This document shows positions 1-21,081 of a stretch of 64,000 nucleotides of DNA, piece after piece. Every line of letters starts with the position of its first letter. The first letter of the stretch is position 1. The stretch is taken from the NCBI GenBank assembly GCA_033852175.1, contig JAWSUY010000001.1, forward strand, positions 463,408 through 527,407. Direction: 5' to 3'. The translations under genes and the position numbers were made by a program. Origin of the DNA: Agarilytica sp. (GTDB lineage Bacteria > Pseudomonadota > Gammaproteobacteria > Pseudomonadales > Cellvibrionaceae). The notes under the pieces are model-generated. The model did no database searches and was not told where the DNA came from. It saw only the letters and a program-made list of their open reading frames with translations.

Positions 1-1409
1 GTGTCCTTATAAGGGATAGCCGTCAACAACGCTTCAACGGGAAACGTATCGCCATTTTTACGTATATGCATCCATTCAAAACGGTTGCTGCCTTTCTTAA
101 ACGCCGCCTGTATGGCTTTGTTGGCCTTTTCCCGAGACAACTGACCATCCGGCTGTCGACGGGGCGAAAAATTCGATGGATGCGCCAAACACAACTCCTC
201 TTTAGAGCCATACCCCAACATATCCAATGCGGCTTGATTACAATCCACAAATGAATTTCCTTCGATTAATAAAATAGCATCCGCCGATTTATCAAACAGC
301 GTTTTATATCGGCGCTTACTCTCACCTAAACTTTCATCCCGCTCTTGCACCATCATCTCTAATTGCGCCTTGCTTTCGACCAAGCTTGCTTCAACAGCAC
401 GACGCTCTTTAATCTCCCCCTCTAAACGACCCAAAATATCACCCAAGTATCGACGTAAGATGCCACTGTAAAGCAAATAGAAAACACAGATAATGATGCC
501 CAAAACACACACAAAAAGGCCGAACTCCAAAACAACCCTTTTCTGCTGCCGAACCAATTCCGTTTCGTCGACGGCGTAAGCTAAACGCCCCACCAACTCT
601 CCTGAAAAATCCACGACAGGAACCTGCGAAACGAACAAACTTTTGTCCCGCTGGCGGACAAGTCGAGAACCTCGAAAAGTATAATCTTCAATAAATTTTC
701 GCAACTCAGGCAACACGGGTTTCATACTGCTGTAAACAATAAAAGGGCCGCCTTCGTTTACCTTATCCCGTTGAATCAAATTTGATTCAACGGAAAGTAC
801 AAGTCCGATATTGTTATTGTGCGCCAAGCGCTCAAGAATATGATCGATAGATTCGCCCACTTCAATGTAGCCAATAACCTCACCATTGACCCGCCATGGA
901 TACACCACCCTTAACATCACATCGCCATAAGAAGTAACCTCTATACCTGCCACGGTATCTTTGCTATTCAAAGCTTCTAGAAATGTTTTACGCCGAATCA
1001 AATCGCCATACTGACTGGGCTGATGCATACGCAAAATAACCCGACCTTCAACATCGGTAAAATAGAATAGTGTCGCATTGTGGTGCTCATTCAGCTCGGA
1101 AAACACCTCCCGCACCTGTTCTTGCAGAGCCTCACGATCACCCGCAAGAAAAGCCGGCGCCAGATCAATATTATGTTCAAAGGAATAAACTAAACCCTCT
1201 AAATACTTCGCTTCCACAGACAGCGCATTGATGAAGTTTTTGCTCACCCGAGCATCGTAAGATTGCCCCAGAGTCGCCATATCCTCCTCTTGCTGCCGAT
1301 CCATCGCCCAAACAATCGCCCAAACAATCGCCACCAGAATAATCCCAATTGAGAGTACAAAAGGCATTACCAGATATGTGCGAACGTTCTTTAAAGGCGC
1401 ACTATTCAT
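1..1409 (-). CDS. Sensor-domain signalling protein (periplasmic Cache-like region, TM, coiled coil, PAS); C-terminal output domain lies beyond window start (partial)
   Basis: Minus-strand ORF starting ATG at 1409 (MNSAPLKNVRTYLVMPFVLSIGIIL...) and open to position 1. N-terminal TM, ~270-aa extracytoplasmic region, second TM (LEFGLFVCVLGIIICVFYLL), then a PAS-like segment (YKTLFDKSADAILLIEGNSFVDCNQAALDMLGY). Not in the ORF track because it lacks an in-window stop. Confidence 0.6.
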   Translation of the reverse strand, partial: MNSAPLKNVRTYLVMPFVLSIGIILVAIVWAIVWAMDRQQEEDMATLGQSYDARVSKNFINALSVEAKYLEGLVYSFEHNIDLAPAFLAGDREALQEQVREVFSELNEHHNATLFYFTDVEGRVILRMHQPSQYGDLIRRKTFLEALNSKDTVAGIEVTSYGDVMLRVVYPWRVNGEVIGYIEVGESIDHILERLAHNNNIGLVLSVESNLIQRDKVNEGGPFIVYSSMKPVLPELRKFIEDYTFRGSRLVRQRDKSLFVSQVPVVDFSGELVGRLAYAVDETELVRQQKRVVLEFGLFVCVLGIIICVFYLLYSGILRRYLGDILGRLEGEIKERRAVEASLVESKAQLEMMVQERDESLGESKRRYKTLFDKSADAILLIEGNSFVDCNQAALDMLGYGSKEELCLAHPSNFSPRRQPDGQLSREKANKAIQAAFKKGSNRFEWMHIRKNGDTFPVEALLTAIPYKD

Positions 1410-1692
1410 AACCAACCTCAAATCAAAAGCGGTATCTTTCTACTCTCACGGTGCGCCCAATAATCGCAAAAAATTCGGCAGGCACACGCGAATGCCCCGG
1501 AGCATAGCGAGCCTGTTTAAGTATAGTTGTATATGAGTAAATTCTGACCGAAAATTGGCTTTGAACACCCGCCAGACCGCCTAGACAGTTGAATGTTGTG
1601 CCTGTATCATGGCCGCCTTCTCAGCTATGAGACAGATGTATTGGGTAAGTAAACCCCTTACAGATGCATGCTTAGCGAGTAAACCAGCCTAC

Positions 1693-1769
1693 GCACCCGT
1701 AGCTCAGCTGGATAGAGTAGGTGGCTTCGAACCACTTGGTCGGGGGTTCGAATCCCTCCGGGTGCGCCA
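1693..1769 (+). tRNA. tRNA-Arg, anticodon TCG (UCG)
   Basis: 77-nt cloverleaf: acceptor GCACCCG/CGGGTGC, D-arm GCTC-AGCTGGATA-GAGT, anticodon stem GGTGG/CCACT with loop CTTCGAA, T-arm GGGGG-TTCGAAT-CCCTC, discriminator G, encoded CCA. Near-identical to E. coli tRNA-Arg(ACG) apart from the anticodon. Confidence 0.85.
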
Positions 1770-1779
1770 ATACCGAAAA

Positions 1780-1805
1780 CCTCGCCGAACGGCGGGGTTT
1801 TTTTA
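1780..1805 (+). terminator. Rho-independent terminator of the tRNA gene
   Basis: CCTCGCCG-AA-CGGCGGGG hairpin followed by TTTTTTT. Confidence 0.6.
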
Positions 1806-1956
1806 TGCGTGGCGCGCCAGACTTCATTCTATATTTTCGCCATTTCACGACATGTACCCAAGCCAACAAACTGCTACCATCTAGCCCTGAAGGCTAATAA
1901 GTTCGAACACATCCATAACATCAGCACCTTCGGCAAACTCAAGGAATTAGACAACC

Positions 1957-2292
1957 ATGTACAGTTTCAAAGTGAGGCCCGGTTACAATTCATCCGCAAT
2001 GCTCATCGACTTTTCTTTAGATGAGGCCGATGACGTTTTTTTCGGTACATTATATGGAGCGCTTCAAGGGATAAATCCGTCGAAAGTTGATTTGAAAGAG
2101 CTGTGGGTAGAAGAGAATGTCACACTTCAATGCAACAGTGATTTGGGCGAATTTGAAATAGTCAGCGACATATATGACTTGGTTTTTATAACAGCAAATG
2201 ACAACCAAAACATCATTCAGAAAATCGAAGAATTGCTCTCCAACCATCACGCGTTTACAAAGCAAAAATATGACGCGAGAGTGTATAACTGA
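1957..2292 (+). CDS. Hypothetical protein (111 aa), possibly the first cassette-like ORF
   Basis: ORF with no recognisable motifs; followed by a weak attC-like imperfect palindrome (2297-2441). Confidence 0.35.
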   Translation: MYSFKVRPGYNSSAMLIDFSLDEADDVFFGTLYGALQGINPSKVDLKELWVEENVTLQCNSDLGEFEIVSDIYDLVFITANDNQNIIQKIEELLSNHHAFTKQKYDARVYN

Positions 2293-2296
2293 GGGG

Positions 2297-2441
2297 ATAT
2301 AACTAAGAGTAAAGCTCTATCTATTACTGACTTTATTTTACCTGGCCAATACAGCGAACAAAGATCACCGCTATAAAGAACATAAAGAAAATACTACCTG
2401 AATACTGAACGAGCTGAACGACATCCATATTCGTTAGTTGA
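2297..2441. repeat. Candidate attC-like site (weak)
   Basis: 5' arm ATAACTAAG and 3' arm CGTTAGTTGAC are partially complementary (AACTAAG versus reverse complement AACTAACG). Confidence 0.3.
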
Positions 2442-2444
2442 CAA

Positions 2445-3067
2445 TGCAAGTGAAAATCGAATTGAAAATAATGTAAAGAAACAAGCTGTCATACCTCTGG
2501 TACCAAAAGTTGTATTCTCACGCTGAGACCTATGCAACAAAAAAAGGAAGCGAACAACACTGCAAACTTACGGTCCGCTCCCGGTCGCGGCCCCCTTTCA
2601 TGTTTGCTATTTTTATAGCTGTATTTTCTTATATTGCTTCTGGGCTATTTAGTCGAGAGCCTGAAATAAACCAATAGGGACCGCTGTGAGCTTAAAGGGG
2701 AAGTCCAAGTAAATGGCCTTGTGACTTCAAATCGTATACTTAACCCTTTCTAAGCTGCTCTCGCCAACAAGATTCACGTGCGGTCCTTCAGAAGAGCAAA
2801 CAAACGCGATCAAAAAACGAACTGGCCCGGCGCGTTATCCTGAGGGTTTGGCACAAATACGTAATCTATTGTTTAAAATCATAGAGTTAGGCCGCTCTCC
2901 ATATCTGGCGATAAGAGGCGCTAGGGCGGCATTTCCCAGACTGGGAATTTGCTTAAATGGTGTAAAGTCAGTTACTGTGGGGGTTACAGGGCGATGCTGT
3001 TTTTGAATTTAAAAAATAGCCGCGCCAGGGAAATCGCGCACTAGGGCGCGATATACAACTGTTAGCC
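2445..3067. other. ORF-less stretch with orphan integron core sites (GTTAGGC at 2886-2892, GTTAGCC at 3061-3067); degenerate/empty cassettes or attI remnant
   Basis: About 620 bp without an ORF over 30 aa on either strand. It contains a canonical R' core GTTAGGC and a second GTTAGCC 18 nt before the GTG start of the 3079 ORF. Confidence 0.3.
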
Positions 3068-3078
3068 GGGAGAATATA

Positions 3079-3516
3079 GTGAACGAAAAAAATGATTCAT
3101 TTCTTGATATAACCGAAGAGAAAACTTCTAAGTTTTGGAAGATTGTGGGGCTTGTTGTTATAGGGTTAATTATTTTATCAAGAATGGACGTATTCGACTC
3201 TGAGTTGAAAAAAGGGTTTGACTATACGATATCCGCTGAGCGTTTGAATGTTAGTTCTTCCGAAGACCTAGTTGCAATATTAAGTGAGTACGCAATAGAT
3301 AGGGAAGTCTTATCAAGCGAGCTAGGAAAAATAGATGTTTCAATGGAAGAGTTTGAAAATAATGTATCAATAGAAATGTTGGCTGATTCAGATCAAAATG
3401 GGTTTAAGGGGCTTTATGTAGAGCTTAGATCGAGCTACGACCCAAATATGATGAAGTCCGTATATGACTTTATTCTCTCAGATATTGAAGTTTTCGTATT
3501 GTCTAAGTCTAGCTAA
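3079..3516 (+). CDS. Hypothetical cassette protein with N-terminal TM helix
   Basis: GTG start 12 nt after GTTAGCC; hydrophobic segment WKIVGLVVIGLIILS; stop TAA embedded in AGCTAAC (attC R''). Confidence 0.5.
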   Translation: MNEKNDSFLDITEEKTSKFWKIVGLVVIGLIILSRMDVFDSELKKGFDYTISAERLNVSSSEDLVAILSEYAIDREVLSSELGKIDVSMEEFENNVSIEMLADSDQNGFKGLYVELRSSYDPNMMKSVYDFILSDIEVFVLSKSS

Positions 3517-3613
3517 CAAAGCTATTTTGCCTCGTTCGCTTTGCTCACTGGACAAATTTTCCGTGGCTGCGCCACTAAAAGAAAAAATTTGCCGCAAATA
3601 AGCGGCGTTAGAA
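3511..3613. repeat. attC site (cassette recombination site)
   Basis: 5' AGCTAACAAAGCTATTTTGCC pairs imperfectly with 3' GGCAAATAAGCGGCGTTAGAA, with bulged bases; internal GTGGCTGCGCCAC hairpin; R' GTTAGAA at 3607-3613, 20 nt before ATG 3634. Confidence 0.55.
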
Positions 3614-3633
3614 TTTAAACTAAAGGAGTAACG

Positions 3634-4104
3634 ATGGATCAGTTTAAAACTCTAGAAAACCTAAGAGATTACATAAAAGAAATAAAAGGTTTTTATTCTC
3701 GACCAACAACGAGAGGAGAGCATTCTACTCTGTACCTTGATCAAAACGACGGAGAGACAATACACGGAATTAGACGGCGAGACTATCTGTTTTCACCTTG
3801 CGGAAAGTTCGTTTTGCCAAGCGAAAATATGGGACTGTCATTTTCCGCTCATTGGCAACACCTTAAAAACATCTATCGCCTAAAATCGTCAAGAAATGGG
3901 GGAAAGCCTGTTGATGTTTGCTGGGCTCTAGAAGATGCAAATTTGCCTCAGGGGTTAAAATTTGTTGTAGATAAGGCTGACAAAAAAAATAGGCATTTCT
4001 TTCTAGCGGTTACCGAAAAAATGCATGTATCTCAGTTGGTTAGCAAACTTAAGTGGGTTGCTGATAGAATGGCTGTAATAAAGGATGCGACTAAAGCCTT
4101 ATGA
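3634..4104 (+). CDS. Hypothetical protein (156 aa, basic); first gene of a two-gene cassette
   Basis: RBS AAGGAG 8 nt upstream; overlaps next ORF by ATGA; no recognised domain. Confidence 0.5.
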   Translation: MDQFKTLENLRDYIKEIKGFYSRPTTRGEHSTLYLDQNDGETIHGIRRRDYLFSPCGKFVLPSENMGLSFSAHWQHLKNIYRLKSSRNGGKPVDVCWALEDANLPQGLKFVVDKADKKNRHFFLAVTEKMHVSQLVSKLKWVADRMAVIKDATKAL

Positions 4105-4391
4105 TTAAATTTAGACAAAAAGAAGAAAAAGATATCTCTCTTTTCTATGCCAGAAAACTTGGCAATGAGGTGGCCGCGTCAATCATTGAGAGTGGTGAGG
4201 TAGCTAATTCAAGCGAGGCTGTTACTTTGGCCCGATTTTACTGGTCTATGGTGGCAGAAACCGTCAAGGAGAAAAATGCCGGTATAGATCATGGTTTCGG
4301 AGATATGGATATGTGGCTCGAATATATTTGTAATGCATTTTTCTTCTATTTATCAAATAATGGGTATGAAGAAGAATGGGAATCCCAATAA
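4101..4391 (+). CDS. Hypothetical acidic protein (96 aa); second gene of the two-gene cassette
   Basis: Start overlaps stop of upstream ORF (ATGA); acidic C-terminus (YEEEWESQ); followed by attC-like repeat. Confidence 0.45.
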   Translation: MIKFRQKEEKDISLFYARKLGNEVAASIIESGEVANSSEAVTLARFYWSMVAETVKEKNAGIDHGFGDMDMWLEYICNAFFFYLSNNGYEEEWESQ

Positions 4392-4466
4392 TTCTGACCA
4401 TGCCATCATTGTTCGCCCTTCGGGCTGGACCGCTCTTCGTTCGGCCCAACATGGCGGGCGTTAGCA
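4392..4466. repeat. attC-like site
   Basis: Ends ...CATGGCGGGCGTTAGCA with R' GTTAGCA at 4460-4466, followed by ACAAGGAG RBS and TTG/ATG start; internal GCCCTTCGGGC hairpin. Confidence 0.45.
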
Positions 4467-4484
4467 CAACAAGGAGAATGAACT

Positions 4485-5120
4485 TTGAACCAGGCAGCTT
4501 CAAGATATCTATATTTTTCAGGATTACTTATTCCTTTCTGGCTTGCTATAGGTGTAATTATTGCTGGGAATCTTTATCCAGGTTACAGCCACCTTAATTA
4601 TGCAATGAGTCAGCTCGGGGCCGTCGGGTCACCAACACAGTTCATATCACCTGCTATCAATAATTATCCGCTTGGGATACTCTTCATTGTATTTGGTGTA
4701 TCCGTATATCGATCATTTTCGGATGCCAAGCTTGCAAAATTAACGGGCATATTGCTAGTGTTTCACGGAATAGGAAGTATTAGTGCGGGCTACTTTCCGT
4801 GTGACGCTGGGTGCAACCCGGAAGTACCATCTCTTAGTCAAAATCTTCACAACTTATCCGGTTTGGTAATGGCGCTTACCCTTTTAACCGCGAGCGCTCT
4901 CTGGGTGTACTTGTCAATTAACTTGGTGAATTTGAAATGGTTTTCCATGTTTTCCTTAATCTGCACTTTAGTTGCGCTAGTGGTAATTCCTTCTATGGCT
5001 TCAGCAATGGACGGTGGCGGAGGGTTTGGTCTATATCAACGCATTAATTATGGAGCTTCTGTAATTTGGGTAGCTACTTTAGCGGTGGTTCTTTATCATT
5101 ACGCTAGTAAAAAGTGCTAA
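4485..5120 (+). CDS. Polytopic membrane protein (about 6 TM), hypothetical
   Basis: Several hydrophobic helices (LLIPFWLAIGVIIAG, GILFIVFGVSVY, LVMALTLLTASALWVYL, LICTLVALVVIPSM...); stop TAA inside GTGCTAAC. Confidence 0.55.
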   Translation: MNQAASRYLYFSGLLIPFWLAIGVIIAGNLYPGYSHLNYAMSQLGAVGSPTQFISPAINNYPLGILFIVFGVSVYRSFSDAKLAKLTGILLVFHGIGSISAGYFPCDAGCNPEVPSLSQNLHNLSGLVMALTLLTASALWVYLSINLVNLKWFSMFSLICTLVALVVIPSMASAMDGGGGFGLYQRINYGASVIWVATLAVVLYHYASKKC

Positions 5121-5231
5121 CAAATTTCTCCTGCTGAAACCAAAAGCTACGAGATTTTTGTACTTTTCGTTCCGCTCAAACATAGCACAAAAACCGCTCC
5201 GCTTTCGTTTCAGAAGCGCAGGGCGTTAGCG
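5114..5231. repeat. attC site
   Basis: 5' GCTAAC...CCTGC-TGAAAC pairs with 3' GTTTCAGAAGCGCAGG-GCGTTAGC, with a 4-nt extrahelical bulge; R' GTTAGCG at 5225-5231; then ACAAGGAG RBS and TTG 5248. Confidence 0.55.
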
Positions 5232-5247
5232 TCACAAGGAGTTTAAG

Positions 5248-5736
5248 TTGGAATTTTTTTATAGTAGTTGGATTGGTGGAATACACTCATTTACAGCAGT
5301 CCTAGCTCTCTTGTTTGGAGCTGTAGTTGTTACATCTAAAAAGGGCACGGGAAAGCATAAAAAAATCGGGTACGCCTATGTAGTTGCCATGGTAGTCCTA
5401 AATATTTCTGCGATTCCTCTGAATGGCTTATTTGGAGGTGCTGGTTGGTTTCACCTATTCATACTCATGAGCTTGCCATACATTTTAATTGGGCTGTACT
5501 TTCCCATATTTAGACGGAGTGATCCAAATTGGAAAATTCGACATCTAGAAATGATGTCTTATAGTTATGTAGGTCTTCTTGCAGCTTTTGTTGCCGAGCT
5601 ATTTATTCGAGTTCCGCTATATTCAGGGGTGAACAATCTTAGTATTTATATCATGGGTATTTTTGTCGTGTCAGGAGTTATGGGTGGAATTGGATTCGCT
5701 ATAATACAAAAAACAAAACGTAGTGTTCAGCGCTAA
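5248..5736 (+). CDS. Membrane protein (4-5 TM), hypothetical
   Basis: Hydrophobic segments throughout; stop region CGCTAACAAG resembles R''. Confidence 0.5.
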   Translation: MEFFYSSWIGGIHSFTAVLALLFGAVVVTSKKGTGKHKKIGYAYVVAMVVLNISAIPLNGLFGGAGWFHLFILMSLPYILIGLYFPIFRRSDPNWKIRHLEMMSYSYVGLLAAFVAELFIRVPLYSGVNNLSIYIMGIFVVSGVMGGIGFAIIQKTKRSVQR

Positions 5737-5774
5737 CAAGTACAGTTGCCACGTAGCAAGAGAATCGATTTAGA

Positions 5775-6500
5775 ATGTACACATTTTCTGGTTTTTTTGT
5801 AAAGGGTAAAGTTGTCGAAGTTGAGAAAGACCATTGCATTGTCCGAAGAATTTCAGACCCATTTGTCGGTAGTGGAGTAAATGCACCCGAGCTGGTTTCA
5901 TCCCATTTAAGTGAGAAAGAAATACGGTGTCTGGCCGCAGATGTCGGAATTGATAAAACAGATCACTGGATGTGTATTGTCTATACATGCTGGGCAGGCC
6001 GAGTCGACTTAGTATTTGGCTATGTTAATAAACCATCTGAATCATATGGGCCTGTGTCAGGAGAGGAAGAAGATGGGGAGCAGGTTTTGGCTAATCTATT
6101 TCGAGAATTTGGCTTATCTGAAAAGCACACGGAATCATTTACACCATTTGAACGAGATTTTTGGGGTGAGTACAAGCTTGGCAAGCGGGACAGCTTCAGA
6201 CACGGCTCCTCCGCAAAGCCACCCCTTCCAAAGGCGCTAGCCTTCAAAAATAGTAACCCTATGGAAGGCGAAGAAGTAAGTGTGAATAAAATACCAGGGC
6301 GCATCATTGTCTTGGGTGTAGCATTGTTTATATTTGCATTGCTATTTGGATTTTTGTCTATGATTCCGGAGGTACAGGATTATGAAAAAGCGCTAATGCA
6401 GATCGCCAAATTTTGTTCAATTGGCTCTGGGATTGGATTTGTACTGGGCATTATTACAAATCTTACGGCGAAAAATACACCAGGAGAACGAAGGAAATGA
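5775..6500 (+). CDS. Hypothetical protein with C-terminal TM helices (start uncertain)
   Basis: ORF start sits only 1 nt after a TTTAGAA R'-like core, so the true start may lie downstream; C-terminal hydrophobic region RIIVLGVALFIFALLFGFLSMIP. Confidence 0.4.
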   Translation: MYTFSGFFVKGKVVEVEKDHCIVRRISDPFVGSGVNAPELVSSHLSEKEIRCLAADVGIDKTDHWMCIVYTCWAGRVDLVFGYVNKPSESYGPVSGEEEDGEQVLANLFREFGLSEKHTESFTPFERDFWGEYKLGKRDSFRHGSSAKPPLPKALAFKNSNPMEGEEVSVNKIPGRIIVLGVALFIFALLFGFLSMIPEVQDYEKALMQIAKFCSIGSGIGFVLGIITNLTAKNTPGERRK

Positions 6501-6614
6501 ATTTAAAAATCAAGAGGTCAAGGCAATTGAAGTTGGTGTTTGATATCGTTCAAAAAACTAAAATCGATTACTCTGACCCTTTGATTCGCGGCCTTACAAA
6601 TCGTAGGAGAGAAG

Positions 6615-7058
6615 ATGTCTATTGAGAAAATGAATGGCCTGGAAGTGATGCAGGGAATTGTGAATGGTGACATTCCTCACCCTAAAATGGCAGAAACGAT
6701 CCCAATGAAAGTTCTTTCAGCAAGCGAAGGCCGTGTTATGTTTGAAGTAATTGCAGATGACAGGCATACAAATCCTCTCGGGGGTATTCATGGAGGATTC
6801 GCTGCTACCGTTATGGATTCAGTTACGGGGTGTGCCGTTCATACCATGCTTAGTGCCGGTCAAGGATATGGAACAATAGAGCTCAATGTAAAGATGCTAA
6901 AGCCTGTTCCTAAGGATACAATCTTGAAAGCCGAAGGCTCTGTAATCAGCATGTCAAAATCACTTGGCGTTTCTGAGGGGAGGCTAACTGACGATAATGG
7001 TAAGGTATTGGCATATGCCTCCGCAACCTGCATGTTAATGGGGCCGCGAAATTTATAA
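6615..7058 (+). CDS. PaaI/4HBT-family hotdog-fold thioesterase
   Basis: Motif NPLGGIHGGFAATVMDSVTGCAVHT, typical of PaaI-family thioesterases; 147 aa. Confidence 0.75.
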   Translation: MSIEKMNGLEVMQGIVNGDIPHPKMAETIPMKVLSASEGRVMFEVIADDRHTNPLGGIHGGFAATVMDSVTGCAVHTMLSAGQGYGTIELNVKMLKPVPKDTILKAEGSVISMSKSLGVSEGRLTDDNGKVLAYASATCMLMGPRNL

Positions 7059-7103
7059 AAAGACAGTGCAATTTATCACGTAGTTGATGACGGCGTTAAT
7101 AAC

Positions 7104-7481
7104 ATGAAAGAAATCATGAAATATTTAATTACTATTGCTATCTTGCTTATTATTTTTTCGTGTTCAAATCAAGATACCAAAAAGAATATTAGCAAGAACA
7201 AGAATGACTCACTGCTGGCTGGCGAAATCGTCGATATAGATGAGAAAAAGGTGGTGCTATCTGAAAAAAATGAACAGTACTGTATTGTTGGCTACACCGT
7301 AACGAAAGAGGGCTTTACCAAAGATGTTAAAACGGTAGATTGTCCGAGTGATATTTTTATATCAGCATCTATCAATGCTGCTAAAAAATTCAAATTCAAA
7401 CCAAAAAAAGTTGACGGCGAAGCAGTTGAAGTAAAAGGTGTAACTAATAGGTTTACTTTTACCGTACAAGAAGACAACTAA
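7104..7481 (+). CDS. Lipoprotein with TonB C-terminal-like domain (alternative start 7116)
   Basis: Signal peptide plus lipobox (IFSCSN); C-terminal segment INAAKKFKFKPKKVDGEAVEV resembles the TonB_C fold consensus; R'-like GTTAATA at 7094-7100. Confidence 0.5.
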   Translation: MKEIMKYLITIAILLIIFSCSNQDTKKNISKNKNDSLLAGEIVDIDEKKVVLSEKNEQYCIVGYTVTKEGFTKDVKTVDCPSDIFISASINAAKKFKFKPKKVDGEAVEVKGVTNRFTFTVQEDN

Positions 7482-7570
7482 CCAGTATGTTTTTCGGACA
7501 CTTTTAAGTTGCTTAAAGAAAAACAACTTAAAGACCGCTGTAAATACAGACGCTAAATCCAAGGAACCTC

Positions 7571-8077
7571 ATGAAAGCACATCACTACCTAAGTATTATT
7601 GTAAGACTATTTTCAGTTTTTTTATTTCTATACGCGCTGGGTCAAACTGGTTTAATTGTCGAAGCCGCGTTACACGGGACTATCAAGGGCATTGTTGTTT
7701 CAGCTTGGCTACCTGCTTTTTTAAGTATTCCTTGGTTGGTGGTCTCTGCGATACTCTGGTTTTTTCCTATGTCGATCGCAAAAAAAATAGTGCCTCTAGA
7801 AAGCGACACAACGCCATCAAACTTGTCTCCAATATCAATTTTGGCTGTTCTTCTGACGGCCATGAGCGTGTACTTTTTATACTACGCAGTAGTTGATACG
7901 TTATATTGGATTACGTTCTGGAATATGCTGCAACATTCCAGTAATGGAGGGTATCCCATTGAGCTGAACCCTGAGAACAAGGCAACTATGTACTCTAACG
8001 CTCTGGAACTTTTCTCTGCGTTGGTTATATTGTTCAATTCAAAAAGGATTGCGGCGAGGCTTCATTCTGTTGGATGA
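7571..8077 (+). CDS. Membrane protein (4 TM), hypothetical
   Basis: Hydrophobic helices (IIVRLFSVFLFLYALG, VVSAWLPAFLSIPWLVVSAILWFF, ISILAVLLTAMSVYFLYYAV). Confidence 0.5.
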   Translation: MKAHHYLSIIVRLFSVFLFLYALGQTGLIVEAALHGTIKGIVVSAWLPAFLSIPWLVVSAILWFFPMSIAKKIVPLESDTTPSNLSPISILAVLLTAMSVYFLYYAVVDTLYWITFWNMLQHSSNGGYPIELNPENKATMYSNALELFSALVILFNSKRIAARLHSVG

Positions 8078-8187
8078 TGAGTCTTTGATAATGCGCGAAA
8101 GCACCATACAACAACCTGCATTTGACTCGCTGCCGCTCAGCGTTATGTTCTCCTTAGACTTTACGTTGTTGAGAGGGAAATCTACCT

Positions 8188-8577
8188 TTGATTTGGTCTA
8201 GTAGCTTTAAGCAGTTTTTTATGGGGCTTGGCGTAGCTTGTCTGATGATATCCTTTGGTATCTATTTACTAGACCCAAACGATCGTGGAATTACGCCAAG
8301 CTCCGGGGAATTTTCTCAAAGTGAAGCAGCACTTATAATGGCTGTAATGGGGCTGCTCCTAATTTTTATTTACTACATTGGAGCGTGGGTGCTTAAGTCT
8401 AACTACCGTGAAGAAAATTCGAGAGACAGGTCTGGCGACAACTGGTGTGTCAAAACACTACACGTGCGTCTTAGATCAGCCACTGCGTGGCTTGAAGGTT
8501 TTTCACGGCGCGTGCTTTGCGCTGAACCACAGCCCCTTAACACTGCTTTTAACATGCATATAACACCCAGTCTTTGA
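8188..8577 (+). CDS. Hypothetical protein with 2 N-terminal TM helices (TTG start; ATG 8221 alternative)
   Basis: ORF follows a GTTATGT R'-like core (8141-8147); in-frame stop at 8170 bounds the start. Confidence 0.35.
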   Translation: MIWSSSFKQFFMGLGVACLMISFGIYLLDPNDRGITPSSGEFSQSEAALIMAVMGLLLIFIYYIGAWVLKSNYREENSRDRSGDNWCVKTLHVRLRSATAWLEGFSRRVLCAEPQPLNTAFNMHITPSL

Positions 8578-8818
8578 AAATTTTTGAGTAATGAATTACA
8601 GATCCAACACTTTTACGAAATTTTCTACTTTTAATTCGAAGGTGTACTATTTTGAGACATAATCAAGAAAATAATAGCGATAAATCCGGTATGATTAGCT
8701 TGGATTGTTACAAATACTACTTGCTATAGGGATATTTCTTTGTAGATATCAACGTCTGTAGGCCGCAAAGGAAAACCGCCTGACAATATACTGAGCTAGT
8801 AGTGTTTGAACAAATTTA

Positions 8819-9181
8819 ATGGGAAATTTAAGGAAGATCAGTATGTATTATAATTGCCAGATAAACAGTAGTAAGCCCGTCGACGTAGAATCTGTTATGT
8901 CTTTTTTTGAATCAAAATTTCAGGGTAAATACGAAGTCGAAAAAGCTTTGGCTCCGGGGCGCGACTTTGTACTTAAAAAAAGCGGTCTCATTGGTATATT
9001 CCTATCGGTTAAGCCTAATGATAAAGGCGCGGTGCTAAAGTTCAATGCTTGCCCACCCTCGATGTTATGGCGATTACTTGGCTTTGTTACTATGTTGATA
9101 TGCCTAATGAAAAGCGGGCCTATTGTGGATGACATTAAGGCGCTAGCGGCATATACGAAGGACATGTCTGCGGAGTCCTAA
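8819..9181 (+). CDS. Hypothetical protein (likely start 8843)
   Basis: AGGAAG RBS before ATG 8843 (MYYNCQ...); no recognised domain. Confidence 0.4.
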   Translation: MGNLRKISMYYNCQINSSKPVDVESVMSFFESKFQGKYEVEKALAPGRDFVLKKSGLIGIFLSVKPNDKGAVLKFNACPPSMLWRLLGFVTMLICLMKSGPIVDDIKALAAYTKDMSAES

Positions 9182-9352
9182 GAATTAATTTACCCCGTAT
9201 ATATGATGGTTGCAGGTCTTGCGTTTTCTCCCGAGCATAAAATGATGCCATTACGCCAAGTTTAGGTCGACGAATATGTTGTTGTGTCTTACTGAGGGGG
9301 TCAACCTATTGCAAAGGAAAATTTCAAAGTCCTAGCCACTGCCTTCCACATT

Positions 9353-9379
9353 GCAATCCCTTGATTCTCAAGGGATTGC
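9353..9379. repeat. Perfect inverted repeat, 10-bp arms with 7-nt loop (GCAATCCCTT-GATTCTC-AAGGGATTGC)
   Basis: Read directly in the sequence; overlaps the annotated TTG of the 9361 ORF. Confidence 0.6.
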
Positions 9380-9870
9380 TCTCGGATGAAAACCACTTGA
9401 TCAAAATAATTAGCGTATTAATTCTCTCCACGCTCTTGGTGGGCTGCCCAAATACAGACGCCAGGGTCAAGAACCCTACACCGAAAGATATTGAAGGTGT
9501 TTGGGAGGCTTTATATGACAATAGTACAATTCCATACCTGTTATTGCGGATGGACGACAAAGGAATAGGAAAGGTGATTGGCGCAGGCGACGAAGGTGCC
9601 GGAAAGATATTTGACTTACACTCGTTTGAGACTCTTCAGAAGTCCTTCTTCATTATCGCTGAGCTAGCTACTGACGAAGAGGACGCTGATGATGAGGTAA
9701 TGAAATTCGAGGGTACACTATCCGATGGGTTGCTATGCTTTGCATCAATAAACCCAGACGAAGAAGCAGAAACGCCGGATGCGGAACTTAATATCTGTTT
9801 TGCCCGATTTAAAAAACTGGCAGAATACAGGAAGTCGGCACTGGCGATAGGGGATGAGCTATTGCTCTAA
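9361..9870 (+). CDS. Lipoprotein, hypothetical (probable start TTG 9397)
   Basis: Signal peptide with lipobox LLVGC (from TTG 9397: MIKIISVLILSTLLVGC); acidic C-terminal half. Confidence 0.45.
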   Translation: MILKGLLSDENHLIKIISVLILSTLLVGCPNTDARVKNPTPKDIEGVWEALYDNSTIPYLLLRMDDKGIGKVIGAGDEGAGKIFDLHSFETLQKSFFIIAELATDEEDADDEVMKFEGTLSDGLLCFASINPDEEAETPDAELNICFARFKKLAEYRKSALAIGDELLL

Positions 9871-9901
9871 ATTTTCAATCAAGCGCAGCAATCATTGAAA
9901 A

Positions 9902-10489
9902 ATGGAATATACGATGAACGACGATATTATTGATTACCCTGCAGCATTTCATGACATCTCCACAGAAACTAAGACTATGGATTTCCATCAAGTTTCGGAT
10001 GGAAAGCTAGGCTCGCTGCTGTCGACGCTTTGCGCGAGCAAACAAAAAGGGACTTTCCTAGAGTTGGGAACTGGGAGTGGGCTATCAACATCTTGGATGT
10101 TGTCAGGGATGTGCCAGTCATCATCTCTTGTAACCGTGGATGACGACGTGTCACTTGTGGCTATTGCCAAGAATTTTCTGGGGCATGACAAGCGAGTGCG
10201 ATTTGTTGTTGATCAGGGCGAAGCGCTTATTGATACACTGGAGCCTGAGTCATTTGATCTAATATTCGCCGACACATGGCCCGGAAAGTACTTTCATCTA
10301 GAAGAAACTTTAGATCTACTCAAAACTGGGGGAATGTACATTATCGATGATATGCTACCCCAAGAAAACTGGCCGGAAGGGCATGAAAATAAAGCCGCTA
10401 CGTTAGTGAGTGCTCTATCGCGGAAAGAGAACTTTACGATGACCAAATTGAATTGGTCTACCGGCATTGTTATTTGCACGAAAAAATAA
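9902..10489 (+). CDS. Class I SAM-dependent O-methyltransferase (family 3, caffeoyl-CoA OMT-like)
   Basis: Motif I LELGTGSGLSTSWM, acidic loop VTVDDD and post-I DLIFADTW, typical of O-MTase family 3. Confidence 0.7.
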   Translation: MEYTMNDDIIDYPAAFHDISTETKTMDFHQVSDGKLGSLLSTLCASKQKGTFLELGTGSGLSTSWMLSGMCQSSSLVTVDDDVSLVAIAKNFLGHDKRVRFVVDQGEALIDTLEPESFDLIFADTWPGKYFHLEETLDLLKTGGMYIIDDMLPQENWPEGHENKAATLVSALSRKENFTMTKLNWSTGIVICTKK

Positions 10490-10577
10490 TGTGTATTTGA
10501 TGAAGATGAATGAATCAGATCGCGCTTTCGGTAAAATCATTACCGATTCTAGCGTGATGCATTTTTAGTTTTGGAGG

Positions 10578-10997
10578 TTGTACAACGTGGAAAGAAAAGC
10601 TAGATGTTCATGTGGCCAGTTACGCATTACCGTGAAGGGCGATCCACAAGTAGTCGTCGTATGTCATTGCACTAGATGCCAAATACGAACGGGGTCGGTG
10701 TTTGGCGTTTCTTCGTATTTTGGAGATGACACTGTAGTTTCGATTGAAGGTAACTCTAAGACGCTTGAACGTACGAATGATGCCGGCCGAAAATCGAAAC
10801 GAGATTTTTGCCCTGATTGCGGCACTACTGTTTTTTGGAAGACGTATTCGTTTCCAGAAAGTACGGGTATTGCTGTCGGTTGTTTTGCAGATCCTACGTT
10901 TCCGGCGCCGAAAGCTTCGGTGTGGAATTCATCAAAGCATGATTGGGTTAATTTACCTGAAGATATGCCGTGCTCTGATACGCAAGAATTTGGTTAG
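10578..10997 (+). CDS. GFA (glutathione-dependent formaldehyde-activating / CENP-V-like) family protein; likely GTG start 10587
   Basis: Cysteine pattern CSCGQ...CHCTRCQ...CPDCG characteristic of the GFA family; GGAGG RBS 9 nt upstream of GTG 10587. Confidence 0.7.
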   Translation: MYNVERKARCSCGQLRITVKGDPQVVVVCHCTRCQIRTGSVFGVSSYFGDDTVVSIEGNSKTLERTNDAGRKSKRDFCPDCGTTVFWKTYSFPESTGIAVGCFADPTFPAPKASVWNSSKHDWVNLPEDMPCSDTQEFG

Positions 10998-11062
10998 TTA
11001 CATTCTCGGCTTGGTAAGGGCGTTCACCCTCTTAAAGATGGTTATTACAACAAGGAAAAATT

Positions 11063-11518
11063 ATGGCCAGACAAAATGATAGCGTTGTTTGGATTCTATT
11101 CGCTTATTTATTTAGCTTCTCGTCTTTAGCCGCAGCATATTTTGTTGCGAATGAGATGATCGACCCTAGCAACCTCAATGCGGGCCTTGGCGATAATAAA
11201 CTTGAGCGAATTACTGAGTCAGTAAGGAAGTATAGAGCGGTCATAACAATCGGCACTATTTTCACTGTCCTTTCTTGGTTTGTCATCGCCATTCAGACAT
11301 TTCGTCTAGCCGCGCACGGAAAAGTGTACTTTATTTCCTCTTATATTTGGGGCGGTATTTATGTCTTACTGTCACCGAGCATAATCATTTTCGTTGGTCC
11401 AGTCTTAATCATGATAAGTTTAAACCGCCAGAAGATTTTACACCCTGAACAGTTTGAAGAGCCGGATATATCACCGGCTGATCGAGTCAAAGCATCAAGC
11501 AGTGAAAATAGTGTATGA
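11063..11518 (+). CDS. Membrane protein (3-4 TM), hypothetical
   Basis: Hydrophobic helices (VVWILFAYLFSFSSLAAAYFV, AVITIGTIFTVLSWFVIAI, GGIYVLLSPSIIIFVGPVLIMI). Confidence 0.45.
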   Translation: MARQNDSVVWILFAYLFSFSSLAAAYFVANEMIDPSNLNAGLGDNKLERITESVRKYRAVITIGTIFTVLSWFVIAIQTFRLAAHGKVYFISSYIWGGIYVLLSPSIIIFVGPVLIMISLNRQKILHPEQFEEPDISPADRVKASSSENSV

Positions 11519-11593
11519 ATATATCGGCTCTAGTAATCCATCGAATTAAAACTTAATCTGAACAAATAATTAATTCCACTCAAAGAGAATCAT

Positions 11594-14464: not shown

Positions 14465-15549
14465 AAATACAATTTTCTTTAGTGGGGTTGCTCTTCGCAT
14501 CCAGTTTCGCATTTTCTGATATTGAAAGCCTGACGGCGTCAGATTTATCTTCGCCTTTTTCTGGACCTACCAGTATTTTGAGTTTGGATATCGCAAAAGA
14601 TAAAAAGACGGCGGAATTGAAGTTTAAGGCTTGGGACTTGGGAAAAAAAACGACCACCAGCATTTCTGTAAAATCCCCATTTGATAAGGACAGTGGAGAA
14701 TCGTCTTTTGCCAATTTCGATGGCCTTGGCGACTCAGCGACCATCACTTTTGGATTGGACTCTAAGATAATCGGAAATTTAGGCGCTAACAACACAGCCG
14801 AAAGTAATAACAAAGAACTGTGTCAAAAATACATGCTGAAAGACAAAAAGAGTTCTTGCTCGTATGGCACTGTAAAGACTGCTGCTGAGAAGTTTTTTTC
14901 CGACAACAGTAAAGATGCCAATCTGGTCATCTGCAACGCTTTTGGTTTTAATCAACTCCAGTGTAATAAGGATGATTTCCCGGCCTTACTCGCGGAACAG
15001 TATGCCAAACAACGTTCAGCTGTTTTTGCACCGCTTACAAGCGCGCACCTTATTCCAGTCAAGCTCACGTATGGTAAGGCTAGCTATAAATATTTGGATG
15101 TTGATAGCTTAGCAACGGAAAAAAACAGCTTAGGTGCTCTTGCGGCATCTATCGGTTATGGCTTTCTCACGCATAAGTGGTTTGCTGGGACGACTTTGGC
15201 TTATCAAAAATACCATAAGGCTGGGGATACAAAATCGTATTGCACTTCTATCAATGAATCTTCTTCTGCTACACAATGTGAGAACATTGCTTTTGGCGAC
15301 CCTACTAAGAAGGTCCGCCATAATCTCTCTTTTGAATTCAGATACCGGGCTGTAAATGAAAAATTTGCGATTGGTATTAAAGTCACCAGTGATGTCAAAA
15401 ATTCTGAAGAAGCAGTGGAAATTCCTATCTACTTTTTACAGCCCAATAAATACGGCCTGAGTACTGGCGTGAAAATAGGGTGGGACTCAATAGGAAAAGA
15501 TGTGGGTGTTACGCTTTTCTTTGGGACTTCATTTGCGTTTTTTAAATAG
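14461..15549 (+). CDS. Putative outer-membrane beta-barrel protein
   Basis: Signal peptide (MKIQFSLVGLLFASSFAFS), alternating amphipathic strands, C-terminal aromatic ending ...TSFAFFK. Confidence 0.4.
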   Translation: MKIQFSLVGLLFASSFAFSDIESLTASDLSSPFSGPTSILSLDIAKDKKTAELKFKAWDLGKKTTTSISVKSPFDKDSGESSFANFDGLGDSATITFGLDSKIIGNLGANNTAESNNKELCQKYMLKDKKSSCSYGTVKTAAEKFFSDNSKDANLVICNAFGFNQLQCNKDDFPALLAEQYAKQRSAVFAPLTSAHLIPVKLTYGKASYKYLDVDSLATEKNSLGALAASIGYGFLTHKWFAGTTLAYQKYHKAGDTKSYCTSINESSSATQCENIAFGDPTKKVRHNLSFEFRYRAVNEKFAIGIKVTSDVKNSEEAVEIPIYFLQPNKYGLSTGVKIGWDSIGKDVGVTLFFGTSFAFFK

Positions 15550-20178: not shown

Positions 20179-21081
20179 ATGTCAGCTGAGAAGGTTTTGA
20201 GAAATGCGTATATGACCAACAATCACGATCGGTATCACAAAGTATTTGAATATATCGACCAACACTTAGACGATGCGCTTAATGTTGAATTGTTAAGCCA
20301 GGTCGCCTGCCTTTCGAAATTTCACTTTCATCGACAATTTTCTGCGCTGTACGGTATAGGCGTTGGGGCCTACATAAAGTTGGTGCGGTTAAAACGGGCG
20401 TCCTATCAATTAGCGTTTAGGGATAACCAGAAAATAGTGGAAATTGCTTTTGCGGCTGGATACGAAAGCCCCGAAGCTTTTTCAAAAACGTTTACTCGTA
20501 TTATGGGGAAAAGCCCTTCTGCTTTTAGAAAACAATCGAATGATATTGCTTGGCACAACCAATACGAATCCATATCCAAGCTAAGGCAGAAAGTTATGGT
20601 TGAAAAAGCACAGTCACCTGAAGTCACCGTTGTCGATTTTCCTGAAACGCCGATTGCCGCATTAGAACATAGAGGGCCGGTTGGCTCTCTCGGCCATACT
20701 ATTCAACACTTTATTGCGTGGCGAAGGCAACATCACACTCCGCCCAGTAAAAGTAGAACCTTTAATATTATGTATGACGACCCTGCTACCACTGAGCCTG
20801 AACGGTATAGGTTCGATATCTGTGCGTCATATAAAGGTAAGGTCCCAAACAACAAACTTGGGGTCATCAATAAAGTCATCCCTGAGGGCCGCTGCGCCTT
20901 AGTACGGCACATTGGCCCCGATGATATTATCGAACAAGTGGTCTCTTATCTTTATGGTGAATGGCTAATCAAAAGTCATAAAGAACTTCGGGATTTCCCT
21001 CTATTCTTCGAGCGGGTCACACTTTTTCCAGACGTTCCTGAAAACGAGTCGATTACGGATATTTACCTGCCTTTGCTATGA
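20179..21081 (+). CDS. AraC-family transcriptional regulator with GyrI-like effector-binding domain
   Basis: N-terminal AraC HTH (LSKFHFHRQFSALYGIGVGAYIKLVRLKRA...YESPEAFSKTFTRIMGKSPSAFR) and C-terminal GyrI-like domain. Confidence 0.75.
   Translation: MSAEKVLRNAYMTNNHDRYHKVFEYIDQHLDDALNVELLSQVACLSKFHFHRQFSALYGIGVGAYIKLVRLKRASYQLAFRDNQKIVEIAFAAGYESPEAFSKTFTRIMGKSPSAFRKQSNDIAWHNQYESISKLRQKVMVEKAQSPEVTVVDFPETPIAALEHRGPVGSLGHTIQHFIAWRRQHHTPPSKSRTFNIMYDDPATTEPERYRFDICASYKGKVPNNKLGVINKVIPEGRCALVRHIGPDDIIEQVVSYLYGEWLIKSHKELRDFPLFFERVTLFPDVPENESITDIYLPLL

What the first reader, a model, noticed from the sequence alone, without database searches (positions are those of the whole stretch)
3511..5231. 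Three well-preserved attC sites with an R'' arm (...GCTAAC) overlapping stop codons, an R' arm (GTTAGAA/GTTAGCA/GTTAGCG), and extrahelical bulges
Site 3511-3613 pairs 5' AGCTAACAAAGCTATTTTGCC with 3' GGCAAATAAGCGGCGTTAGAA. Site 5114-5231 pairs GCTAAC..CCTGC-TGAAAC with GTTTCAGAAGCGCAGG-GCGTTAGC, leaving a 4-nt bulge on one strand. Such extrahelical bases are the hallmark that lets IntI recognise the folded bottom strand. The stop codon TAA sits inside GCTAAC in three consecutive cassettes, and GGCGTTAG lies 20-24 nt before each start.
Basis: seen in the sequence. Interest (0 to 1): 0.65.

Follow-up and report, generated by a model that had tools for sequence, protein, structure and literature searches.

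The report
Integrase-less gene cassette array, eroded attC
The three sites are real integron cassette recombination sites (attC) in a short cassette array that has no integrase gene of its own, a well-known kind of element, and they are partly eroded rather than well preserved.

Summary
The motifs are at the stated coordinates: AGCTAAC...GTTAGAA (3511-3613), TTCTGAC...GTTAGCA (4392-4466) and TGCTAAC...GTTAGCG (5115-5231). All lie on the + strand between small same-strand ORFs. They are attC-type sites. The strongest evidence is comparative. In other strains and samples, homology to this array breaks within a few bases of the predicted G|TT crossover of four R' boxes (3061, 3607, 4460, 7095), and different cassettes are swapped in. 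Sites 1 and 2 have the canonical geometry: R''(7), 5 nt, L'' with one extra base, then L', 5-6 nt, R'. Site 3 does not, and its 5-nt bulge lies on the wrong arm. All three fold poorly into the recombinogenic hairpin (pfold 4e-4, 2e-5 and 1e-7, against 0.04-0.6 for bona fide sites). Only site 1 reaches borderline significance with an independent attC covariance model (E=0.046). The 64-kb window has no intI. The element is therefore a CALIN (cluster of attC sites lacking an integrase). It has about six cassettes (3062-7101) inside a 9.3-kb strain-variable island beside tRNA-Arg, in an Agarilytica-like gammaproteobacterium. It is a new member of a known kind, and interest is low to moderate.

The parts
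1693..1769 (+). tRNA-Arg(TCG). This is the conserved flank to the left of the variable island.
   Evidence: ARAGORN and Rfam. It is conserved in the Agarilytica sp. MAG locus L001.
2293..11570 (+). A ~9.3-kb strain- and species-variable island that holds the cassette array. It is absent from the closest genome.
   Evidence: blastn against L001: homology covers window 1-2292 and resumes at 11571, with only ~700 bp in between in L001. GC is 0.40-0.42 against 0.44-0.47 in the flanks.
3061..3067 (+). Left junction of the array (J): the first R'-type box, GTTAGCC, 12 nt before the first cassette ORF.
   Evidence: L099 and L100 are identical to window 3035-3064 and diverge immediately after ...ACAACTGTTA into a different cassette.
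3079..3516 (+). Cassette 1 ORF (145 aa, no known family).
   Evidence: ORF list. No hits in Pfam, NCBIfam or PADLOC.
3511..3613 (+). attC1: AGCTAAC|AAAGC|TAT[T]TTGC ... GCAAATA|AGCGGC|GTTAGAA. The geometry is canonical, with one extra base in L''.
   Evidence: 7/7 L-box pairs. Top hit of the independent attC model R3 in the window, 18.4 bits, E=0.046. pfold of the bottom strand is 4.4e-4. L102 homology starts exactly at this R'.
3634..4391 (+). Cassette 2: two overlapping ORFs. The first is a Tse2-like ADP-ribosyltransferase toxin family protein of 156 aa (3634-4104). The second is a 96-aa partner (4101-4391), a putative immunity protein.
   Evidence: 15 of 20 homologues match PF18648. The same gene pair occurs at 91% nucleotide identity in another context in L102. 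Relatives lie in attC arrays.
4392..4466 (+). attC2: TTCTGAC|CATGC|CAT[C]ATTG ... CAACATG|GCGGGC|GTTAGCA. The geometry is canonical, but the R'' core is mutated (GAC instead of AAC).
   Evidence: 6/7 L-box pairs. The L102 orthologue has TTCTAAC|AATGC. L099 homology resumes at 4456, 4 nt before R'. R3 finds only the R' half, 10.1 bits. pfold is 1.7e-5.
4485..5120 (+). Cassette 3 ORF (DUF998 membrane protein, 211 aa).
   Evidence: Pfam PF06197, E=6e-28.
5115..5231 (+). attC3: TGCTAAC ... GTTAGCG. It has good R boxes and a long imperfect hairpin, but the interior is non-canonical: an 8/2 internal loop, then CCTGC/GCAGG, then a 5-nt bulge GAAGC on the R' arm.
   Evidence: MFE fold. Only 7 of 11 canonical pairs are possible and pfold is 1.4e-7. 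R3 gives 12.2 bits, E=1.8, with L-box pairs flagged. No comparative breakpoint was observed here.
5248..5736 (+). Cassette 4 ORF (DUF2306 membrane protein, 162 aa).
   Evidence: Pfam PF10067, E=1.6e-10.
5731..5775 (+). Probable truncated attC vestige of 45 nt: CGCTAAC|AAGTA|CAGTTGCC ... TTTAGAA.
   Evidence: Read from the sequence. Not detected by R3 at E<=10. This assignment is an inference.
5775..6500 (+). Cassette 5 ORF (241 aa, no known family).
6508..6599 (+). Imperfect hairpin followed by TTTGATT|CGCGGC|CTTACAA. This may be a decayed attC right arm, which is speculative.
   Evidence: Inverted repeat I1 and the sequence. Not detected by R3.
6615..7058 (+). Cassette 6 ORF (4HBT thioesterase, 147 aa).
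   Evidence: Pfam PF03061.
7053..7101 (+). attC6 remnant. R' is GTTAATA at 7095-7101, preceded by GTTGATG|ACGGC. The left arm is eroded compared with the L099 allele.
   Evidence: L099 homology ends at 7099 (GGCGTTAA) and different genes follow. The L099 allele TCATAAT|ACAGC|TAT[G]CAAT...GTTGATG|ACGGC|GTTAAAT scores 13.3 bits with R3.
7104..11518 (+). The rest of the island: eight small same-strand ORFs. They include TonB_C, a methyltransferase and GFA, and the rest have no known family. None has a recognisable attC.
   Evidence: Pfam. No R3 hit at E<=10.

Best explanation
Window 3061-7101 is a short array of about six promoterless gene cassettes on the + strand. Each ends in an attC-type site, and there is no integron integrase nearby. 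That makes it a CALIN (cluster of attC sites lacking an integron-integrase). It sits inside a 9.3-kb variable island, about 0.5 kb downstream of tRNA-Arg, in an Agarilytica-like (Cellvibrionaceae) chromosome.

[quoted passage not shown] An IntI tyrosine recombinase cleaves between G and TT of R', so a cassette (ORF plus attC) is excised as a circle or inserted.

Shown here:
- The cassette boundaries are real crossover points, because different strains carry different cassettes joined exactly at these R' boxes.
- The fixed left junction at 3061 has received at least two different first cassettes.

Inferred:
- The recombinase acts, or acted, in trans from elsewhere in the genome or from a transient mobile integron.
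- The array arose either by cassette insertion at a genomic secondary (attG-type GWT) site or by loss or separation of intI.
- The sites in this strain are decaying. The evidence is the R'' point mutation in attC2, the eroded left arm of attC6, the aberrant attC3, the truncated site at 5731 and pfold values of 1e-4 or lower. Present-day mobility is probably low.
For: 1. Motifs and position: R''/R' boxes and same-strand ORFs with an RBS 18-22 nt after each R'.
2. Geometry: all 16 bona fide attCs parsed from class 1 integrons and environmental arrays follow R''7, 5 nt, 3 bp + 1 extra base + 4 bp ... L'7, 5/6 nt, R'7. Sites 1 and 2 follow it with 7/7 and 6/7 L-box pairs, and the extra base is on the R''/L'' arm.
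3. Comparative breakpoints:
 - L099 and L100, from two independent samples at 99.1% identity, diverge after 3064, carry a different cassette with a canonical attC, rejoin at 4456, and diverge again after 7099.
 - L102 carries cassette 2 at 91% identity in an unrelated context, with homology starting at GTTAGAA 3607.
4. Covariance model: R3 was built only from attCs outside the window. It ranks sites 1, 3 and 2 as hits 1, 2 and 4 of the whole window on both strands.
5. Model validation: R3 finds 32 hits (31 on the gene strand, up to 46 bits) beside relatives of the cassette 2 gene in metagenomes.
6. No intI: Pfam on the larger ORFs and tblastn with IntI1 find nothing at E<=10 beyond noise.
7. 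The island is absent from the closest genome.
8. Literature: CALIN is defined in PMC4889954. Genomic insertion of cassettes at GWT attG sites is described in 10.1101/2022.09.11.507474.
Against: - Individually, only site 1 is borderline significant with the independent model (E=0.046, and calibration is rough). Sites 2 and 3 score in the noise range of 10-12 bits.
- The canonical hairpin is not the minimum-energy fold of any of the three sites. pfold is 3-6 orders of magnitude below bona fide sites.
- Site 3 cannot form the canonical L box, and no breakpoint has been seen at it.
- IntegronFinder's own attC model could not be run.
- Whether the genome encodes an IntI elsewhere is unknown.
- Only about 3 kb to the left of the array is visible in the window, although it is occupied by a conserved sensor gene and the tRNA.
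Confidence: 0.85

Rival explanations
1. The array is the remnant of a once-complete sedentary chromosomal integron. Its intI and attI were deleted, or were separated from the array by a rearrangement. Under this reading it did not arise from cassettes inserted at a genomic secondary site. This is a rival only for the origin of the array, not for what the sites are.
For: - The left junction at 3061 has been used by two different first cassettes, which is attI-like behaviour.
- Two direct GTTAC repeats at 2976-2994 lie upstream of the crossover, loosely like the IntI-binding direct repeats of attI1 (sequence; attI1 sequence).
- A 770-bp non-coding stretch (2293-3060) precedes the array.
Against: - There is no IntI-like remnant anywhere in the window (tblastn).
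- No IS elements are present.
- The non-coding stretch is too short for intI.
- Cury et al. found that 95% of CALINs lack intI pseudogenes.
Confidence: 0.3
2. The palindromes are ordinary intergenic structures, such as intrinsic terminators or REP-like repeats, and their GCTAAC/GTTAGC ends are coincidental.
For: - Fold energies are no better than those of shuffled sequences.
- A terminator-like stem is called inside site 1 on the minus strand.
- Loose attC-geometry matches occur at chance frequency: 143 found against 135 expected.
Against: - No T-tract follows the hairpins on the coding strand, and terminator-like sites are not enriched.
- The three sites share no sequence beyond the R boxes, so they are not a repeat family.
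- Four independent homology breakpoints coincide with R' boxes.
- Relatives of the cassette 2 gene sit among high-scoring attCs.
Confidence: 0.03
3. The 9.3-kb region is a classical tRNA-targeting genomic island, integrated by a P4- or phage-type integrase. Under this reading the attC-like sites are irrelevant passengers.
For: - The island lies next to tRNA-Arg.
- Its GC content is lower than that of the flanks.
- It is absent from the closest genome.
Against: - No integrase gene is present.
- There is no direct repeat of 11 nt or more of the tRNA 3' part between 1900 and 14000.
- The variable region starts 520 bp past the tRNA, after a conserved ORF.
- Variation between strains is cassette by cassette, not all or none.
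Confidence: 0.05

Closest known systems
[quoted passage not shown] 2016, IntegronFinder)
   Same: - Two or more attC sites lie less than 4 kb apart on one strand, with no intI nearby.
- The array is small, about the typical five sites.
- The cassettes have unknown function and include no resistance genes.
- There is no intI pseudogene.
   Different: - The classification here rests on my own attC model and on comparative breakpoints, not on IntegronFinder's curated model.
- Several sites are visibly eroded.
- Population data show cassette replacement at the array's fixed left junction.
Class 1 mobile-integron attC sites, for example attC of dfrA5 and arr-3
   Same: The arm architecture is identical and the spacers are almost the same. 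dfrA5 reads GGTTAAC|AAAGC|TAT[G]CAAT...ATTGATA|ACGGC|GTTAGTA. Site 1 reads AGCTAAC|AAAGC|TAT[T]TTGC...GCAAATA|AGCGGC|GTTAGAA.
   Different: - The central (VTS) regions of the window sites are long, AT-rich and poorly self-complementary.
- pfold is 1e-4 or lower, against 0.04-0.6 for the class 1 sites.
- No IntI1 or attI1 is present.
Sedentary chromosomal integron arrays, for example the Vibrio cholerae superintegron with VCR sites
   Same: - Both are chromosomal arrays of small, mostly unknown-function, same-strand cassettes.
- Both include a toxin-type cassette.
- Some VCRs have similarly low pfold. VCR126 is about 1e-5, with low recombination rates (PMC5371416).
   Different: - The attC sites here are heterogeneous in sequence and length (75-117 nt), not a homogeneous repeat family.
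- The array is tiny.
- There is no adjacent intI or attI.
Genome-inserted cassettes at attG sites (SALIN and small CALIN; Loot et al., bioRxiv 2022.09.11.507474)
   Same: - Cassettes lie outside any integron platform.
- The junctions have G|TT preceded by unrelated chromosomal DNA, both here (ACAACTG|TTA) and in L102 (AATAAAATG|TTA).
   Different: - Insertion at an attG site is inferred, not shown.
- The same junction carries different first cassettes in different strains, which is more attI-like than a one-off attG event.

Membership tests
attC recombination site | Inverse core R'' (RYYYAAC) and core R' (GTTRRRY) as terminal inverted repeats | tested here: met
   Site 1 is AGCTAAC/GTTAGAA and site 3 is TGCTAAC/GTTAGCG. 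Site 2 is TTCTGAC/GTTAGCA, with one core mutation, and its L102 orthologue has TTCTAAC.
attC recombination site | L''/L' boxes at fixed spacing (5 nt after R''; 5-6 nt before R'), with an extra (extrahelical) base in L'' on the R''/L'' arm | tested here: inconclusive
   Met by site 1 (7/7 pairs, extra T) and site 2 (6/7 pairs, extra C), and by 16 of 16 reference attCs. Not met by site 3, which has an 8/2 loop and a 5-nt bulge on the R' arm.
attC recombination site | The bottom strand folds into the recombinogenic hairpin with appreciable probability (pfold as defined by Loot et al. 2017) | tested here: not met
   pfold is 4.4e-4, 1.7e-5 and 1.4e-7. The comparison values are 0.04-0.62 for class 1 attCs and a median of 0.21 for 22 environmental attCs. 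Some functional VCRs are equally low, so this argues for weak activity rather than against identity.
attC recombination site | Recognised by a covariance model trained on independent attC sites | tested here: inconclusive
   With R3 (16 outside sites), site 1 scores 18.4 bits, E=0.046; site 3 scores 12.2 bits, E=1.8; site 2 gives the R' half only, 10.1 bits, E=5.8. The same model gives 21-46 bits for 29 of its 32 hits at E<=1 in metagenomic cassette arrays. IntegronFinder's own model was not available.
attC recombination site | The site marks a cassette boundary, with the crossover at G|TT of R' | tested here: met
   Homology breakpoints lie after 3064, at 3607, at 4456 and after 7099, each within 4 nt of a GTT. 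This was not observed for the R' of site 3 (5225).
attC recombination site | Recombined by an integron integrase | not testable with these tools
   This needs an in vivo or in vitro recombination assay.
Complete integron | An intI gene with an adjacent attI and a Pc promoter next to the array | tested here: not met
   No tyrosine recombinase is found among the ORFs. tblastn with IntI1 finds nothing in 64 kb. No promoter enrichment is seen.
CALIN | [quoted passage not shown] | tested here: met
   Sites lie at 3511, 4392, 5115 and 7053, all on the + strand, with spacing under 2 kb. No intI is present. Caveat: attC calling was not done with IntegronFinder, and only ~3 kb is visible to the left.
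tRNA-associated integrative island | An integrase gene plus a direct repeat of the tRNA 3' end at the far border | tested here: not met
   No integrase is present, and there is no repeat of 11 nt or more.

The most novel reading that the evidence does not exclude
The array is not a dead remnant. It is an integrase-less satellite platform that is still serviced in trans. The fixed chromosomal junction at 3061 behaves as an orphan attI-like or reusable attG site, and it has accepted different first cassettes within a single species (about 99% identity between strains). If so, CALINs would take an active part in cassette exchange in natural marine populations even with low-pfold attC sites.
Probability: 0.3. 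Interest if true: 0.5.

Novelty: new member of a known kind. Interest (0 to 1): 0.3.

Why it matters
CALINs are common, but how they arise and whether they are active is not well understood. This locus gives a small, tractable example with natural variants.
- Two strains of one species differ by cassette-precise swaps at a junction that has no integrase beside it.
- The attC sites show graded erosion: a point mutation in R'', a decayed L box and a truncation.
- The locus could therefore be used to test whether cassettes in CALINs are mobilised in trans, and how fast attC sites decay without a resident integrase.
- It also adds a Tse2-like toxin and partner pair to the list of cassette-borne toxin modules.
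- For annotation, it is simply an ordinary cassette array.

Tried and rejected
- **Generic scans for R-box or L-box palindromes.** Loose versions hit at chance frequency and missed sites 1 and 2. They were kept only as a null model.
- **Covariance models R1 and R2.** These were built from full class 1 attCs. They were dominated by the GC-rich aadA-type central region and gave all three window sites only 9-10 bits. R3, an arms-only model with the centre as an insertion, replaced them.
- **Curated attC alignments in paper supplements.** None are held as text.
- **Exact-protein look-ups for cassette 1 and cassette 2 proteins.** Nothing was found. The source assembly, an NCBI contig of 527 kb, could not be fetched, so a genome-wide search for intI was impossible.
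- **Rfam.** It found only the tRNA.
- **Promoter and terminator scans.** They showed no enrichment.
- **Reading site 3 on the opposite strand.** It gives a geometry match using TTGTGAC as R''. I judged this a chance match, because it puts the CTAAC core in the spacer.
- **Searches for function of the unknown cassette proteins.** NCBIfam and PADLOC gave nothing.
Full report
**Observation**

The window was read at 3000-6000.
- The three sites exist: AGCTAAC...GTTAGAA (3511-3613), TTCTGAC...GTTAGCA (4392-4466) and TGCTAAC...GTTAGCG (5115-5231).
- All lie on the + strand, in the gaps between small + strand ORFs.
- GGCGTTAG ends 22, 20 and 18 nt before the next start codon.

Several details in the finding are wrong.
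- The quoted right arm of site 1 (GGCAAATAAGC...) is not in the window. The real sequence is GCCGCAAATAAGCGGCGTTAGAA.
- The stop codon before site 2 lies outside R''.
- The third 'TAA inside GCTAAC' is at 5734-5736. It belongs to a 45-nt vestige, not to one of the three listed sites.
- The bulge in site 3 is 5 nt.

Against chance, the picture is mixed.
- GCGTTAG is not enriched in the window: 6 found against 7.1 expected. Three copies on one strand within 1.7 kb is unlikely by my estimate (about 0.004).
- Folding energies are unremarkable: z = -1.3, -0.1 and -1.2.

**Surroundings**

- Window 1-1409 (-) encodes a dCache/PAS sensor.
- tRNA-Arg lies at 1693-1769.
- About 10 kb of small + strand ORFs follows. 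They include DUF998, DUF2306, 4HBT, TonB_C, a methyltransferase and GFA, and many have no known family.
- Housekeeping genes resume at mtnA (12137).
- No tyrosine recombinase is found among the larger ORFs. tblastn with IntI1 finds nothing in the 64 kb.
- The closest genome is an Agarilytica sp. MAG, with MtnA at 87% identity. Agarilytica belongs to the Cellvibrionaceae.
- That genome has the same tRNA-Arg, 111-aa ORF, 90-aa ORF and mtnA, but only about 700 bp where the window has 2293-11570.
- No tRNA-derived direct repeat marks the island.

**Reference geometry**

I retrieved bona fide attC sites from class 1 integrons on plasmids and parsed them.
- All thirteen show R''(7), then 5 nt, then L'' of 3 bp + one extra base + 4 bp, then L'(7), then 5 or 6 nt, then R'(7).
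- Three further sites fit as well: orfF, one from strain contig L099 and one from Agarilytica MAG locus L103.
- Site 1 fits exactly: AGCTAAC|AAAGC|TAT[T]TTGC ... GCAAATA|AGCGGC|GTTAGAA. It almost copies the arms of attC-dfrA5.
- Site 2 fits with one L-box mismatch and a mutated R'' core: TTCTGAC|CATGC|CAT[C]ATTG ... CAACATG|GCGGGC|GTTAGCA.
- In both sites the extra base is on the R''/L'' arm, which is the canonical side.
- Site 3 cannot adopt this register. Its best fold pairs the R boxes, but it then has an 8/2 internal loop, CCTGC/GCAGG, and a 5-nt bulge on the R' arm.

**Comparative evidence (decisive)**

Exact-protein look-ups returned contigs of the same species from public sequencing runs.
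- L098 and L101 are identical to window 4402 onward.
- L099 and L100 come from two different samples and are 99.1% identical in the shared parts. They match window 3035-3064 and diverge right after ...ACAACTGTTA.
- They then carry a different cassette with a canonical attC: AGATAAC|AATCA|AAT[C]ATGG...CCATATT|TGGGC|GTTAGCA.
- They rejoin the window at 4456, which is GGGC before GTTAGCA of site 2. They run to 7099 (GGCGTTAA) and diverge again into other genes.
- L102 comes from a third sample. It carries the two-gene cassette 3634-4391 at 91% identity behind unrelated DNA (a glucodextranase-like gene). Its homology starts exactly at GTTAGAA 3607.
- The L102 copy of attC2 has the canonical TTCTAAC|AATGC, where the window has TTCTGAC|CATGC.

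Four breakpoints therefore coincide with predicted G|TT crossovers. This is the signature of integrase-mediated cassette exchange. It also reveals an extra, eroded attC at 7053-7101 and the array's left junction at 3061.

**Model-based test**

Models built from whole class 1 attCs were too specific. I then built an arms-only covariance model, R3, from 16 attCs outside the window, with the central region treated as an insertion.
- Over the whole window, both strands, filters off, its best hits are site 1 (18.4 bits, E=0.046, exact boundaries), site 3 (12.2 bits, E=1.8) and, in fourth place, the R' half of site 2 (10.1 bits). Noise sits at 9-10 bits.
- The L099 allele of attC6 scores 13.3 bits.
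- As a validation, I fetched 72 metagenomic loci encoding relatives of the cassette 2 protein.
- R3 was run on 69 of them and found 32 hits at E<=1, 31 of them on the gene's strand. Scores reached 46 bits.
- So the model works, and this gene family is a genuine cassette family. The window's sites are weak by comparison.

**Folding**

I used the published pfold definition, which constrains YAAC/GTTR and L'/L'' pairing with DNA parameters (PMC5371416).
- Class 1 controls give 0.04-0.62.
- Twenty-two environmental attCs have a median of 0.21.
- The Agarilytica MAG site gives 0.49.
- The window's sites give 4.4e-4, 1.7e-5 and 1.4e-7.
- The canonical fold is 3.5 and 5.0 kcal/mol above the minimum-energy fold for sites 1 and 2.
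- Such values occur in some Vibrio VCRs that recombine poorly. The sites may therefore still be weakly active, but they are not well preserved.

**Interpretation**

The element is a CALIN as defined by Cury et al.. It has about six cassettes (3062-7101) with graded attC decay.
- attC1 is intact but folds poorly.
- attC2 has an R'' point mutation.
- attC3 has an aberrant interior.
- The site at 5731-5775 is truncated.
- The site at 6508-6599 is doubtful.
- attC6 has an eroded left arm.

Downstream ORFs (7104-11518) have no detectable attC. The origin is unresolved. One possibility is insertion of cassettes at a genomic GWT (attG) site by an integrase acting in trans. The other is loss or separation of intI. 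The reuse of junction 3061 by two different first cassettes shows that the junction itself has been recombinogenic within the species.

**Side observation**

Fifteen of 20 homologues of the 156-aa protein (3634-4104) match PF18648, the Tse2 ADP-ribosyltransferase toxin family. The overlapping 96-aa ORF is probably its immunity or antitoxin partner. No solved structure matches by sequence.

**Verdict**

The identity of the sites holds. The claims of good preservation and of a bulge hallmark do not hold. The element is a new member of a known kind, of low to moderate interest.

Noticed in passing
window 3634-4391: A two-gene cassette with overlapping stop and start codons. The 156-aa protein belongs to a family in which 15 of 20 homologues match PF18648 (Tse2 ADP-ribosyltransferase toxin). 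The 96-aa partner is probably an immunity or antitoxin protein. Relatives are widespread in Cellvibrionaceae, Hahella, Microbulbifer and marine metagenomes, usually inside attC arrays.
   Followed up: partly
window 2956-3064: The stretch just upstream of the first crossover contains two direct GTTAC repeats (2976-2982 and 2988-2994). It is flanked by contig break points in several independent assemblies: contigs end at 2955 and others start at 3035. It might be an attI-like integrase-binding region or a repeated sequence.
   Followed up: partly
window 2293-3060: About 770 bp with no convincing ORF and no Rfam match lies between the conserved 111-aa ORF and the array. It is absent from the closest genome (L001) but present in same-species contigs. 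Its function is unknown.
   Followed up: partly
L103 10001-14840 (Agarilytica sp. MAG GCA_045430285.1): This is a second integrase-less cluster. It has a Tse2-like gene pair, several small ORFs and a DUF2326 gene, followed by a high-scoring canonical attC (14728-14840; 39.8 bits with R3, though this site was in the R3 training set; pfold 0.49). Such arrays recur in this genus.
   Followed up: partly
L105 (metagenome contig Ga0256830_1030184) 1-2379: A very dense cassette array with six attC hits in 2.4 kb, five of which I parsed. Its R boxes are TTCTAAC...GTTAGAA, like those in the window, and it surrounds the closest metagenomic relative (69% identity) of the toxin gene.
   Followed up: partly
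window 20179-21081: An AraC-family regulator with a GyrI-like domain that also matches Pfam Cass2 (integron-associated effector-binding protein). It lies outside the array and is probably unrelated to it.
   Followed up: no
window 44987-45025 (-): A 39-nt mini-palindrome, CTTTAAC...GGGCGTTAAAT, scores 10-16 bits with the attC models. It lies inside a 768-aa ORF on the opposite strand, so it is most likely a chance match.
   Followed up: no
window 32007-37355 (-) and 24164-26992 (-): A very large ORF of 1782 aa and a 942-aa DUF349 protein. Neither was examined.
   Followed up: no
L091 3147-4478 and L096 3198-4547 (class 1 integron control loci): Group II intron reverse transcriptase genes are inserted at or next to attC sites in two of the plasmid integrons fetched as controls. 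This association is already known.
   Followed up: no
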